Source: Octopus vulgaris (lineage: Eukaryota). Taken from it: a stretch of DNA of 64,000 nucleotides. Below, piece after piece: positions 3,224-5,193 of this stretch. The position numbers were made by a program. The stretch lies in contig OX597838.1 in the NCBI GenBank assembly GCA_951406725.2, positions 27,714,001 to 27,778,000 of the forward strand, written 5' to 3'. Numbering within the stretch: position 1 is the first letter of the stretch; each line of letters begins with the position of its first letter.

Positions 3224-5193
3224 TTTATATATCTATATACTGTGTATTCCTCAACCATCATCTCTTGTCAACCTTTACCTGTAAGCCTTATCCATGTTAA
3301 ACACTGCTTTTTTCCCGCTTCGCCTTGTTATATTTTGCAGATTGCACGTTTTTTTCGTTTGAAGACACAAGGAGTAAGTACTCTCTTATTCCTTCTACTC
3401 TCTCTCTCTCTTTCGTTCTCCTTTTCTGTCTATTTATCTCTGTGCTATATAAACTGCCTGCCTTTCTAGCTGAGCATCTAACAAGTCTGGTACACCAGGA
3501 AGGAAGGGAAACATCAGGGGCTACTTTTTTTTTTTTTTATATTGAAGCACAAAAAGTTTCTAGGGAACATGTTGTGTGTGTGGTGGAGTTGAAATACATT
3601 GTTTTCATGGCTGTGATGATACAAGAGAGGCAACAAACAAGGGGATTGTATGTTGGACTCAAGATTATAAGGGAGTTGTATGTTGGACTCAGATTATAAG
3701 GGAGTTGTATCTTGGACTCAAGATTGTTTCTTTTTGATTTATTTTTTTGTGATTGGGAGGGTGGGGGTTCAGCATTTTTTTTATTAAATTTTTAGTTCTG
3801 TCACCCGCCCACCCTGCACCTGTCCTGCAGTATGAGGTGTTGTTACTCTGCAACTCTTCCTCATACCACCCCTCTCATCCCCTCCACCTGTCCCCACACT
3901 GTATTTTATCTTAAGGGCCAGATTCTTGTATAGGTTCAACTGCCAAGGTCAACTGTGCCTTGTAACCTTTTGGGGTCAATAAAATAATATACCAGTCAGG
4001 TACTGGGGTTGATGTAATAAGCTCACTTCTCTCACAAAACTCTTGATTTTGTGCAGAAATTTAAAACCATTATTTTTTCCAGTTCTTTATATTCTGGGTT
4101 CAAATTCTGCCATGGTTGACTTTGCCTTTCATTTTTTCTGAGTCAAATAAAAGTTGACTGCATTGACCCCAGTTGAGTACTGGGGTCAATGTAATCAACT
4201 TACCCCTCCTCTCAAATTGCTGCCCTTGTGGCAAAATTTGAAACCATTATTATTATGGCAGCAAGCTGGCAGAATTGTTACTGTCTTGACATTCTGAGTT
4301 CAAATGCTGCCAAGGCTTGACTTTGCCTTTCATCCTTTTGGGGGTTGATATAATAAGTACCAGCAAGTACTGGGGTCAATGTAATTAACTGCCCCACCCT
4401 AAAATTTCAGGCCTTGTACCCATAGTAGAAAGAACTGTTGTTACTACTACTACTGCTGCTGCTGCTACTACTACAGCAAGTTGGCAGAATCATTAGTATG
4501 CTAGATGAAAAGCTTAGCAGTATTTTGCCTGTCATTGTGTTTTGAGTTCAAATTCCACTGAGGTCGACTTTACCTTTCATCCTGTCAGGGTCGATAAATT
4601 AAGCATCAGTGATGCTTATCCCCCTTCCCTCAAATTCCAGGCCTTGTGCCTATAGTAGAAAGGATTATTATTATTATTATCATTATTATTATTATTATTA
4701 TTACTAAGGCGATGAGCTGGCAGAACCATTAGCATGCAGGACGAAACGCTTAGCGATATTTCGCCAGTTGCTGTGTTCTGAGTTCAAATTCCGCCAAGGT
4801 TAACTTTGCCTTTCGTCCTTTTGGGGCCGATAAATTAAGTACCAGTGAAACACTGGGGTCGCTGTAATCGACTAGGCCTTGTTTCTATAGTAAAAAAGAT
4901 TATTATTATTATTATTATTATTATTACTACTACTACTACGTTAGTAGTTGAGGGTGATAATCCATATATATTCTTAATCATTTGTGTTTAACCCATTTTA
5001 ACTAGCTTTTAGTGTTCAGCTGGTTTAATATATTTCATTTCTTTCAATGATTGATCAAATTCAATTACTCCAAATACAAACTAATGAGATTAATTAACGA
5101 ATTATTTTTTAATATTATTTCGTTTCTTTAAATTACATTTACATTTAATTTTCTAACTGATTAACTTTATTATGTAAGTGTATGTGTGTTCGC

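What the first reader, a model, noticed from the sequence alone, without database searches (positions are those of the whole stretch)
3341..3373. Candidate 33-nt in-frame microexon in the long numb intron (IARFFRLKTQG)
Seen: a strong acceptor (tattttgcag) and consensus donor (gga|gtaagt) enclose exactly 33 nt. The sequence is open in phase 0, the phase needed to join the GERLSH exon. Known: vertebrate Numb has an alternatively spliced 11-aa basic/aromatic PTB insert (ERKFFKGFFGK). Inference: this could be an 11-aa basic/aromatic insert at a different PTB position, since no intervening PTB exons were seen downstream. It would then be a convergent PTB isoform switch.
Basis: partly seen in the sequence, partly recalled or inferred. 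Interest (0 to 1): 0.7.

Follow-up and report, generated by a model that had tools for sequence, protein, structure and literature searches.

The report
Real 33-nt alternative exon in octopus numb
The 33 bases are a genuine, conserved, alternatively spliced mini-exon of the octopus numb gene that adds an 11-residue basic and aromatic loop to its PTB domain, at a different place from the similar insert known in vertebrates.

Summary
Window 3341-3373 reads IARFFRLKTQG between tattttgcag| and |gtaagt. The exon is real: NCBI gene models of Octopus sinensis numb contain ...KES-IARFFRLKTQG-(RHGKNDGCIVK)-GERLSH..., in 9 of the 15 listed isoforms, and the other 6 skip it. The same 11 residues occur in Argonauta hians (11/11), Acanthosepion pharaonis (10/11) and unnamed decapodiform transcript assemblies (9-10/11). 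The disordered C-terminus is only 51-60% identical.

The insert sits between strand beta7 and helix alpha3 of the PTB domain. Chordate exon 3 sits at alpha2/beta2 instead. The insert is not coleoid-specific. Scallops, mussels, oysters and heterodont clams carry alternative polybasic/aromatic inserts at the same junction, for example RFFKGRHRNRRS.

The most likely role, which is inferred, is a flexible basic-aromatic surface for acidic lipids or acidic partners, as shown for vertebrate exon 3. Tissue specificity and function were not testable here.

The exon is already in public gene models. My literature searches found no description of it, and two Numb papers state that invertebrates lack PTB insert isoforms.

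The parts
1..3340 (+). Part of the long numb intron upstream of the microexon. The preceding coding exon (...WICHGFMAIKES), its VS tandem donor and the 15-nt EKSDL microexon lie outside the window.
   Evidence: none of the probes EKSDL, GFMAIKES, RRWICHG, FAYICRDG or VSFCAPD occurs in any + strand frame of the window.
3286..3340 (+). 3' splice region of the microexon. It has a 53-nt stretch free of AG, 76% pyrimidines at -27..-3, UGC at -36 and -5, and the acceptor AG at 3339-3340.
3341..3373 (+). Microexon A: a 33 nt, phase 0-0 cassette exon encoding IARFFRLKTQG. This is the finding.
   Evidence: sequence; exact peptide in O. sinensis XP_029650999.1 and 8 other listed isoforms, between ...KES and GERLSH; conserved in Argonauta, Acanthosepion and unnamed decapodiform transcripts.
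3374..3379 (+). Consensus 5' splice site GTAAGT of the microexon.
15433..15465 (+). Microexon B: a second 33-nt cassette (ccatctag|CGC...AAG|gtatga) encoding RHGKNDGCIVK. It is spliced between microexon A and the GERLSH exon in some isoforms.
   Evidence: present in 7 of 15 listed Octopus isoforms.
30294..30498 (+). Constitutive numb exon that begins the C-terminal PTB helix alpha3 ([22 protein letters not shown]...). An alternative donor after 30483 removes GNTLN.
   Evidence: helix 180-205 in the model of P0121.
34284..34499 (+). numb exon encoding the first part of the NumbF domain.
   Evidence: PF06311, E 3.6e-22..
38665..38916 (+). numb exon encoding the end of NumbF.
   Evidence: PF06311, E 5.8e-4, 20.7 bits, below the gathering score of 27..
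41353..42074 (+). Last coding exon of numb (DPF and NPF motifs, stop TAG at 42072-42074).
   Evidence: its translation is an exact substring of O. vulgaris CAI9740876.1.

Best explanation
Window 3341-3373 is a genuine, evolutionarily conserved, alternatively spliced 33-nt cassette exon of the cephalopod numb gene.

When included, it inserts 11 residues (IARFFRLKTQG: net charge +3, two Phe, plus Ile, Ala and Leu). The insertion point lies between the last beta strand (beta7, ...WICHGFMAIKES) and the C-terminal helix (alpha3, [12 protein letters not shown]...) of the Numb PTB domain. The reading frame and the fold are left intact. These points are shown.

The rest is inferred. The insert most likely forms a flexible, solvent-exposed polybasic-aromatic loop that gives the PTB domain an extra electrostatic and hydrophobic binding surface. 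That surface would bind acidic phospholipids of the plasma membrane and/or an acidic stretch of a partner protein. Inclusion or skipping would then switch Numb localisation or partner choice. This is the mechanism shown experimentally for the chordate exon-3 insert, which sits in a different loop of the same domain.

In Octopus the switch is combined with three other small variable elements at the same junction, and the listed models show 13 distinct junction variants.

My confidence is about 0.97 that the exon is real and alternative, and about 0.4 for the proposed mechanism.
For: Existence and splicing:
- Canonical splice sites and exact length.
- The peptide is found at this exact junction in O. 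sinensis RefSeq models, in 9 of 15 listed isoforms; the other 6 skip it.
- It is also in Argonauta hians GAB1607979.1 and Acanthosepion pharaonis CAE1313579.1.
- It is present in 9 unnamed transcript-assembly proteins (P0005, P0141, P0142, P0144, P0146, P0333-P0335 plus the named P0136). These represent 23 contigs with the exon, against 57 contigs without it, in the two decapodiform clusters listed.

Selection:
- Against O. sinensis the microexon is 11/11 identical in Argonauta, 10/11 in Acanthosepion and 9/11 in P0335.
- This is like the PTB core (97-100%) and unlike the C-terminal tail (51-60%).

Position:
- All four aligned solved Numb PTB structures (2nmb, 5yi7, 1wj1, 1ddm) show an 11-residue gap exactly here.
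- In the AlphaFold2 model of P0121 the PTB core has block pLDDT of 80-90 over residues 51-130 and 66-79 over 131-170, with beta7 at 158-165 and alpha3 at 180-205.
- The insert is coil of low confidence: residues 170-174 are below 50 and the block 171-180 has a mean of 53.
- The model matches Numb PTB crystal structures with a target-normalised TM-score of 0.83-0.92.

Parallel at the same junction:
- Alternative polybasic/aromatic inserts occur in scallops (RFFK[GA]RHRNRRS), mussels (FFRGRHKNRRS), oysters (WYFKGRNRRS) and Dreissena (KFWKSHKIK).
- Unnamed transcripts that fall inside the bivalve clade carry R[LF]FHLRRTKIK and similar.
- In each of these groups isoforms without the insert also exist.

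Mechanistic analogy, from passages read:
- Vertebrate exon 3 is a flexible loop of basic and Phe residues that binds the acidic domain of Mdm2 (PMC5800818).
Against: - No RNA-seq junction reads from the window's own organism could be examined. RefSeq isoforms are Gnomon models, and their combinations need not all exist.
- The single O. vulgaris protein listed (CAI9740876.1), whose last exon is identical to the window, lacks microexon A.
- The function is wholly by analogy. The insert lies at the N-terminal end of alpha3, the helix that forms the canonical peptide groove, whereas vertebrate exon 3 is described as remote from that groove. An effect on canonical ligand binding is therefore equally conceivable.
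- The model gives the insert low confidence. No coordinates were available to measure its distance to the basic patch or the groove.
- The cephalopod insert has only +3 charge and 2 aromatic residues. That is weaker than the bivalve inserts (+4 to +6), and it has half the Phe content of vertebrate exon 3.
- No basic/aromatic insert was seen in the gastropod isoforms listed.
Confidence: 0.55

Rival explanations
1. The exon is real, but the insert acts on the canonical function of the PTB domain. Lying immediately before helix alpha3, it would lengthen or partly occlude the beta5/alpha3 peptide groove. That would change the affinity or specificity for NPx[YF]-type ligands, or act as an autoinhibitory or regulatory flap, rather than provide a separate membrane or acidic-partner surface.
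For: - The insertion point is 11 residues before the Phe of GCAF. By my own count this corresponds to the groove residue F162, whose mutation abolishes ligand binding (passages).
- beta5 and alpha3 form the canonical binding site (PMC6778778 section 10).
- A short helix (168-171) precedes the coil in the model.
- From fold topology I infer that the start of alpha3 lies near the exit of the N-terminal part of a bound peptide.
Against: - The composition (polybasic plus aromatic, conserved as a class in bivalves while the sequence varies) is typical of non-specific electrostatic and hydrophobic surfaces rather than a precise ligand contact.
- The model predicts an unstructured loop and an unchanged core.
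- No binding data exist.
Confidence: 0.25
2. The exon is spliced in at a low level but has no function of its own, being tolerated splicing noise. The many predicted isoforms would be combinatorial products of the annotation pipeline.
For: - RefSeq X-isoforms are computational models.
- In the Acanthosepion-type cluster only 11 of 67 listed contigs carry the exon.
- The KES|GERLSH junction is a general hot spot for assorted small inserts in many phyla: VS, STEAM, MNETCM and LKGT...SG.
Against: - Peptide conservation of 9-11 of 11 between octopods and decapodiforms, against 51-60% in the unconstrained tail.
- The frame is preserved and the splice sites are consensus.
- In the P0005 cluster 12 of 13 contigs include the exon.
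- Bivalves have an analogous alternative insert.
Confidence: 0.1
3. This is not an exon at all, but a chance open 33-mer between splice-like motifs in a long AT-rich intron.
For: Splice-like candidates do arise by chance: shuffles gave a mean of 1.1 candidates of any length per strand, and 4% of shuffles gave a 33-nt one.
Against: The exact 11-residue peptide is present at the exact junction in independent gene models and transcript assemblies from at least three named cephalopod species.
Confidence: 0.02

Closest known systems
Chordate NUMB exon 3 (PTB-long / PTBi insert, 33 nt, 11 aa)
   Same: Same gene family and the same domain. It is also a 33-nt, 11-residue, in-frame, alternatively spliced cassette rich in Arg/Lys and Phe, with a shared [RK]-F-F-[KR] core, and it is predicted or shown to be a flexible loop.
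   Different: It sits in a different intron and a different loop: alpha2/beta2, the human Ex2/Ex4 junction, as against beta7/alpha3 here. It is reported as a chordate invention that is absent from invertebrates (PMC6778778), so the two are not orthologous. The vertebrate insert has 4 Phe, whereas the octopus insert has 2. Binding to Mdm2, SNX9 and PIP2 and plasma-membrane targeting are shown only for the vertebrate insert.
Alternative polybasic inserts of bivalve numb-like isoforms (for example Argopecten irradians XP_069117863.1, Mytilus californianus XP_052106126.1, Ostrea edulis XP_056022607.1, Dreissena polymorpha XP_052272369.1)
   Same: Same junction (KES|GERLSH), similar length (9-12 aa) and the same core pattern [RK]-hydrophobic-[FW]-[RKH]-x-[RKH]. 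They are alternative in the same species and often combine with the same VS tandem donor.
   Different: The sequences are not alignable beyond the core, and the bivalve inserts are more basic (+4 to +6). Their exon structure was not examined because no bivalve DNA was available here. Common origin versus parallel origin therefore stays open. Gastropods, which grouped with bivalves in my tree, showed no such insert in the isoforms listed.
Srrm3/4 (eMIC)-dependent neuronal microexons
   Same: A short in-frame cassette in a surface loop of a signalling or trafficking protein. It has UGC next to the 3' splice site, a pyrimidine-rich tract and a 53-nt AG-free zone (features as listed in PMC8797185).
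   Different: At 33 nt it is above the 3-27 nt range that I recall as the strict definition. The constitutive GERLSH exon also has UGC at -5, so the motif does not discriminate here. Neural specificity and Srrm dependence were not testable.
Basic-hydrophobic membrane-binding motifs of polarity proteins (including the N-terminus of Drosophila Numb)
   Same: Short unstructured stretches of Arg/Lys mixed with aromatic and aliphatic residues that bind acidic membranes. The review notes that cortical localisation of Drosophila NUMB is set by sequences in its N-terminal 76 residues.
   Different: Those motifs are constitutive and lie outside the PTB fold, whereas this one is an optional exon inside the domain. 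I did not compute a basic-hydrophobic score.

Membership tests
numb gene (PTB + NumbF endocytic adaptor) | NumbF domain (Pfam PF06311) | tested here: met
   the ORF at 34271-34726 hits PF06311 with E 3.6e-22 (79 bits, cut-off 27). The ORF at 38490-38993 matches the end of the profile below cut-off (20.7 bits).
numb gene (PTB + NumbF endocytic adaptor) | PTB/PID domain | tested here: inconclusive
   Only the last helix of the PTB is encoded in the window, and that exon alone gave no Pfam hit. The exon is 100% identical to O. sinensis numb proteins that carry PF00640. It aligns to solved Numb PTB structures, and the full protein's model matches them.
numb gene (PTB + NumbF endocytic adaptor) | C-terminal DPF and NPF endocytic motifs | tested here: met
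   The last-exon translation contains ...DPFDVAWAAK...NNPFQG.... The motif roles are as stated in PMC11889595.
Alternatively spliced cassette exon | Canonical AG...GT boundaries, length divisible by 3, open in the required phase | tested here: met
Alternatively spliced cassette exon | Both inclusion and skipping forms exist in the same species | tested here: met
   9 of 15 listed Octopus isoforms have it and 6 do not; both forms occur in the decapodiform clusters.
Alternatively spliced cassette exon | Split RNA-seq reads across both junctions in the organism of the window | not testable with these tools
   No read data were available.
Chordate NUMB exon 3 (PTB-long) insert | Located between helix alpha2 and strand beta2 (human Ex2/Ex4 junction) | tested here: not met
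   The octopus insert lies between beta7 and alpha3. The exon 3 position is taken from PMC5800818 and PMC6778778. No variation is seen at the alpha2/beta2 site among the 15 listed Octopus isoforms.
Chordate NUMB exon 3 (PTB-long) insert | 33 nt / 11 aa, basic and Phe-rich | tested here: met
   The composition is +3 with FF, compared with the residue names.
Chordate NUMB exon 3 (PTB-long) insert | Confers binding to Mdm2, SNX9 and PI(4,5)P2 and plasma-membrane localisation | not testable with these tools
   Needs biochemistry and cell biology.
eMIC (Srrm3/4)-dependent neuronal microexon | UGC close to the 3' splice site, long pyrimidine tract, long AG exclusion zone | tested here: inconclusive
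   UGC at -5 and -36, AG-free zone of 53 nt, pyrimidine fraction 0.76. The constitutive exon at 30294 also has UGC at -5, and other exons have equal or longer AG-free zones.
eMIC (Srrm3/4)-dependent neuronal microexon | Neuron-enriched inclusion dependent on Srrm234 | not testable with these tools
   No expression data were available.

The most novel reading that the evidence does not exclude
Molluscs have their own PTB-long form of Numb, seen here in both coleoid lineages and in all major bivalve groups sampled. It is an optional polybasic-aromatic loop at the beta7/alpha3 junction that switches membrane or partner binding. It would have arisen independently of the chordate exon-3 insert in another loop of the same domain. 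That would be convergent evolution of the same isoform switch by the same kind of 9-12-residue cassette, and it contradicts the published view that invertebrate Numb exists as a single form without PTB insert isoforms. In Octopus it is embedded in a four-element combinatorial microexon cluster giving at least 13 PTB junction variants.
Probability: 0.35. Interest if true: 0.6.

Novelty: new variant of a known kind. Interest (0 to 1): 0.45.

Why it matters
Vertebrate NUMB function depends strongly on an 11-residue alternative PTB insert, which affects membrane targeting, Mdm2/p53 control and cancer prognosis. That insert has been presented as a chordate invention, with invertebrate Numb described as a single form (PMC6778778 and PMC11889595).

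The exon confirmed here shows that cephalopods also make PTB-insert isoforms of similar chemistry, at a different loop, and bivalves do so at the same junction. If the function is analogous, this is a clean natural experiment in convergent isoform evolution. It would give Numb biologists a second, independent test of what a basic-aromatic loop does to a PTB domain.

It is also a concrete, conserved example for studying short-exon splicing programmes in cephalopods.

If the function is not analogous, the result is an ordinary exon that is already annotated.

Tried and rejected
1. eMIC-type splice signature. It was computed, but the key motif is shared by a constitutive exon, so I left it as inconclusive.
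2. Exonised repeat. The 33-mer is unique in the window. A dispersed repeat of about 400 bp touches only the (TA)n/(TG)n microsatellites near both microexons, not the exons themselves. Rejected.
3. Three-dimensional distance between this insert, the vertebrate exon-3 loop and the peptide groove. The model's coordinates are not exposed to scripts, so this was not done.
4. Pfam on the GERLSH exon alone gave no family. The piece is too short.
5. Pfam on eight repeat-region ORFs gave no families.
6. The literature search with 'numb' as a word start matched 'number' and was useless. I repeated the searches with whole-word matching.
7. Common ancestry of the mollusc insert and chordate exon 3. I considered this because of the shared [RK]FF[KR] core (RFFKG in scallops). 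I rejected it as improbable because the two lie in different introns and exon 3 is reported absent outside chordates.
8. A basic-hydrophobic membrane-motif score was not computed, because I could not recall the scale reliably.
The window was searched exon by exon, and full-length comparisons used database proteins as returned.
10. DNA-level conservation in other coleoid genomes could not be examined.
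Full report
**What is in the sequence**

Window 3341-3373 is ATTGCACGTTTTTTTCGTTTGAAGACACAAGGA (33 nt). It is preceded by a pyrimidine-rich tract ending ...tattttgcag and followed by gtaagt. Frame 0 reads IARFFRLKTQG.

The window has no N and is AT-rich, with 30-48% GC in 2-kb windows.

**Is it more than chance?**

I scanned the window for splice-like signals: AG after at least 70% pyrimidines, an open frame of 9-51 nt, then GTRAGT. On the + strand this gave 4 candidates, of which only this one is 33 nt long. Block shuffles gave a mean of 1.1 candidates of any length and 0.045 of length 33. 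The signals alone are therefore only suggestive.

**The gene**

Two downstream ORFs hit the NumbF domain (PF06311). One has E 3.6e-22. The other has E 5.8e-4 and scores below the gathering cut-off.

I searched the GERLSH exon on its own. It gave numb proteins throughout protostomes, including Octopus sinensis numb isoform X5 at 100% identity.

The window was searched exon by exon, and full-length comparisons used database proteins as returned.

**Exon map**

Exact-peptide mapping of O. sinensis isoform X1 onto the window gives these + strand exons:

| Window coordinates | What it encodes |
|---|---|
| 3341-3373 | IARFFRLKTQG (microexon A) |
| 15433-15465 | RHGKNDGCIVK (microexon B, ctag\|...AAG\|gtatga) |
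| 30294-30498 | GERLSH exon; an alternative donor after 30483 removes GNTLN |
| 34284-34499 | NumbF, first part |
| 38665-38916 | NumbF, end |
| 41353-42074 | last coding exon, stop at 42072-42074 |

The preceding exon (...WICHGFMAIKES) and a 15-nt EKSDL microexon are not in the window. The first 3340 bases are therefore intron.

The last-exon translation is an exact substring of O. vulgaris CAI9740876.1. It differs from O. sinensis by one SGG indel.

**The exon is real and alternative**

O. sinensis X5 (XP_029650999.1) reads ...KES-IARFFRLKTQG-RHGKNDGCIVK-GERLSH....

Fifteen of the 18 cluster members were listed (14 O. sinensis and 1 O. vulgaris). Of these, 9 contain microexon A, 7 contain microexon B and 6 lack A.

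Together with a 6-nt tandem donor (VS) and EKSDL, the listed models show 13 different junction variants. These are Gnomon models, and the combinations need not all exist as molecules.

Outside Octopus the exon appears as follows:
- Argonauta hians GAB1607979.1 has IARFFRLKTQG.
- Acanthosepion (Sepia) pharaonis CAE1313579.1 has IARFFRLKNQG.
- Unnamed transcript-assembly proteins have IARFFRLKN[QK]G.

A maximum-likelihood tree places those unnamed proteins with Acanthosepion (support 100/98).

Crude usage, counted as contigs per listed protein:
- In the Acanthosepion-type cluster (15 of 21 members listed), 11 contigs carry the exon and 56 do not.
- In the P0005 cluster, 12 of 13 contigs carry it.

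**Constraint**

Identity to O. sinensis P0121:

| Species / protein | Microexon A | PTB up to KES | C-terminal tail |
|---|---|---|---|
| Argonauta | 11/11 | 141/141 | 60% |
| Acanthosepion | 10/11 | 137/141 | 57% |
| P0335 (unnamed) | 9/11 | 137/141 | 51% |

The microexon behaves like folded-domain sequence and not like the unconstrained tail.

**Where it sits**

A phmmer search against PDB chains aligned the octopus protein to Drosophila and mouse Numb PTB structures (2nmb, 5yi7, 1wj1, 1ddm). Each alignment has an 11-residue gap exactly at the insert. Human NUMBL (3f0w) and human NUMB isoform 1 (5njj) were also listed.

I built an AlphaFold2 model of the isoform that has only microexon A (P0121, using a 55-sequence alignment):
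- The PTB core has block pLDDT of 80-90 over residues 51-130 and 66-79 over 131-170.
- beta7 spans 158-165, and a short helix spans 168-171.
- Coil follows through the insert. Residues 170-174 are below 50 and the block 171-180 has a mean of 53.
- alpha3 spans 180-205.
- The whole-protein mean pLDDT is 52.8, because the long tail is disordered.

Foldseek matched Numb PTB structures with a target-normalised TM-score of 0.83-0.92.

The chordate exon-3 insert connects alpha2 to beta2 (PMC5800818 passages; PMC6778778 section 10). The octopus insert is thus in a different loop and a different intron, so the two are not orthologous.

I therefore could not measure whether the two loops are near each other.

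**Not coleoid-specific**

I inspected the KES|GERLSH junction in all proteins stored at each step: 148, 206, 336 and 386. In one search, 173 of 206 had both anchors and 96 of those had no insert.

Two searches targeted the junction region directly. Each listed only the best 120 of about 3600 hits.

Alternative polybasic/aromatic inserts occur at the same junction in these groups:
- Argopecten, Mizuhopecten and Pecten: RFFK[GA]RHRNRRS.
- Mytilus species: FFRGRHKNRRS.
- Ostrea, Crassostrea and Saccostrea: WYFKGRNRRS.
- Dreissena: KFWKSHKIK.

In each of these species or genera isoforms without the insert also exist.

Unnamed transcripts with R[LF]FHLRRTKIK, KLFH[IL]RR[ST][KT]IK or [RK]LWR[SK][HQ]KIK fall inside the bivalve clade next to heterodonts.

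A nematomorph model (Gordionus) has KNGIFRKRTHVK.

The shared core is [RK]-hydrophobic-[FW]-[RKH]-x-[RKH].

Gastropod isoforms showed other small inserts or none: STEAM, FSPAM/FGQAK, MNETCM and VS. The sets examined were:
- Haliotis: 15 of 27 members listed.
- Pomacea: 11 of 11.
- Gigantopelta: 9 of 9.
- Biomphalaria: 8 of 8.
- Single representatives of ten other genera.

Other phyla show unrelated inserts at this junction (LKGT...SG forms, one of them from the rotifer Brachionus; LARIGQTFVW in Lineus), so the junction is a hot spot.

In the tree, gastropods group with bivalves (94/86) and cephalopods lie outside. The distribution fits either an old molluscan exon that was lost or left unannotated in gastropods, or parallel gains. 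I could not decide between these without genomes.

**How it probably works**

Shown:
- The exon is an in-frame optional loop at the start of alpha3.
- It has net charge +3, with FF plus Ile, Ala and Leu.
- It is conserved.

Inferred by analogy:
- In vertebrates the exon-3 loop is flexible and rich in Lys/Arg and Phe. It binds the acidic domain of Mdm2 in a fuzzy complex.
- It binds PI(4,5)P2 liposomes and places NUMB at the plasma membrane. Charge-reversal and Phe-to-Ala mutants lose this localisation.
- The review attributes the membrane binding to the basic residues plus six hydrophobic residues.

I therefore propose that the mollusc insert adds a comparable electrostatic and hydrophobic surface.

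The main rival is an effect on the canonical beta5/alpha3 peptide groove. By my own count the insertion point is only 11 residues before the groove Phe.

The splice-site features (UGC at -5 and -36, a 53-nt AG-free zone, 76% pyrimidines) resemble those listed for Srrm-dependent microexons. They do not discriminate here, because the constitutive exon at 30294 also has UGC at -5.

**Literature: what I saw**

- PMC6778778: abstract, passages, and sections 9 and 10 in full. It says PTB-long is a chordate invention absent in invertebrates. Its only mollusc was Lottia, and it addressed only the Ex2/Ex4 junction. I did not see its supplementary alignments, which might show other junctions.
- PMC11889595: passages only. 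It says invertebrate NUMB 'exists as a single form'.
- PMC13248759, PMC5800818 and PMC8797185: passages only.
- PMC8166818: one passage, with nothing on isoforms.

Searches for Numb with Octopus and isoform (3 papers, none relevant), with mollusc terms, and with PTB, alternative splicing, invertebrate and insert (2 papers, the two named first above) found no description of this insert. A search for microexons with cephalopod found one paper, and it only cites a cephalopod study. Subscription journals are not covered by this library.

**Verdict**

- The exon is already present in public gene models, so the feature itself is not new.
- What appears undescribed is that molluscs make PTB-insert isoforms of Numb with chemistry like the chordate insert but at another loop.
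- Function and tissue regulation remain untested.

Noticed in passing
window 15433-15465 (+): A second 33-nt cassette exon (RHGKNDGCIVK; acceptor ccatctag, donor gtatga) lies in the same intron. It is present in 7 of 15 listed Octopus isoforms. It was not seen in the single listed Argonauta isoform (X7) or in the decapodiform proteins listed. It has no aromatic residues and a net charge of +2.
   Followed up: partly
window 30483/30498 (+): The GERLSH exon has two donors 15 nt apart (G|gtaaca and G|gtatct). O. sinensis isoform X4 (P0130) uses the proximal one and lacks GNTLN.
   Followed up: partly
upstream of the window (seen in proteins P0124-P0134, P0137-P0148): Two further variable elements sit at the same junction. 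One is VS, which I infer to be a 6-nt tandem donor; it is widespread in lophotrochozoans and is also seen in Cloeon and Xylocopa models. The other is a 15-nt EKSDL microexon shared by octopods and decapodiforms. Haliotis has a 5-residue STEAM at the equivalent place.
   Followed up: partly
window 47610-49771: A tandem array of a 309-bp unit, 7.0 copies with 98% matches, lies downstream of numb. It has long open frames on both strands, and one copy gave no Pfam match.
   Followed up: partly
window 43796-43879 and 46117-46198 (+): Two tRNA-Ser(AGA) predictions, found by both Rfam and ARAGORN, lie in the repeat-rich region just downstream of the numb stop codon. I did not check whether they are genes or heads of tRNA-derived repeats.
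   Followed up: no
window, e.g. 7538-7749, 42965-43308, 55217-55566, 59225-59587: A dispersed repeat of about 400 bp with an internal (TA)n tract occurs many times on both strands, at 77-86% identity to the copy at 26884-27450. It gives recurrent ORFs such as ...CPRCHAVGLNPEPCGW. It does not overlap either microexon.
   Followed up: partly
window 41353-42074 vs proteins P0124 and P0127: The last coding exon is identical to the Octopus vulgaris protein CAI9740876.1. It differs from the O. sinensis models by one SGG repeat unit, which suggests the window is from O. vulgaris or a very close relative.
   Followed up: partly
proteins P0280-P0293 (Lineus longissimus): The nemertean models show two alternative versions of the strand before the junction (...LALKES against ...LAIRET). 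Nine of the eleven listed LAIRET models also carry a 10-residue insert, LARIGQTFVW. This looks like mutually exclusive exons.
   Followed up: no
protein P0160 (Gordionus sp., Nematomorpha): It has a basic insert, KNGIFRKRTHVK, at the same junction in an ecdysozoan model. This is possibly a further independent case.
   Followed up: no
cluster of P0041: Scallop proteins named 'cytoplasmic dynein 2 light intermediate chain 1-like' (P0231, P0233, P0236) fall in the same 90% cluster as numb-like isoforms. An 886-aa Mizuhopecten 'Protein numb' (OWF38561.1) is also there. This is probably a fused gene model of neighbouring genes.
   Followed up: no
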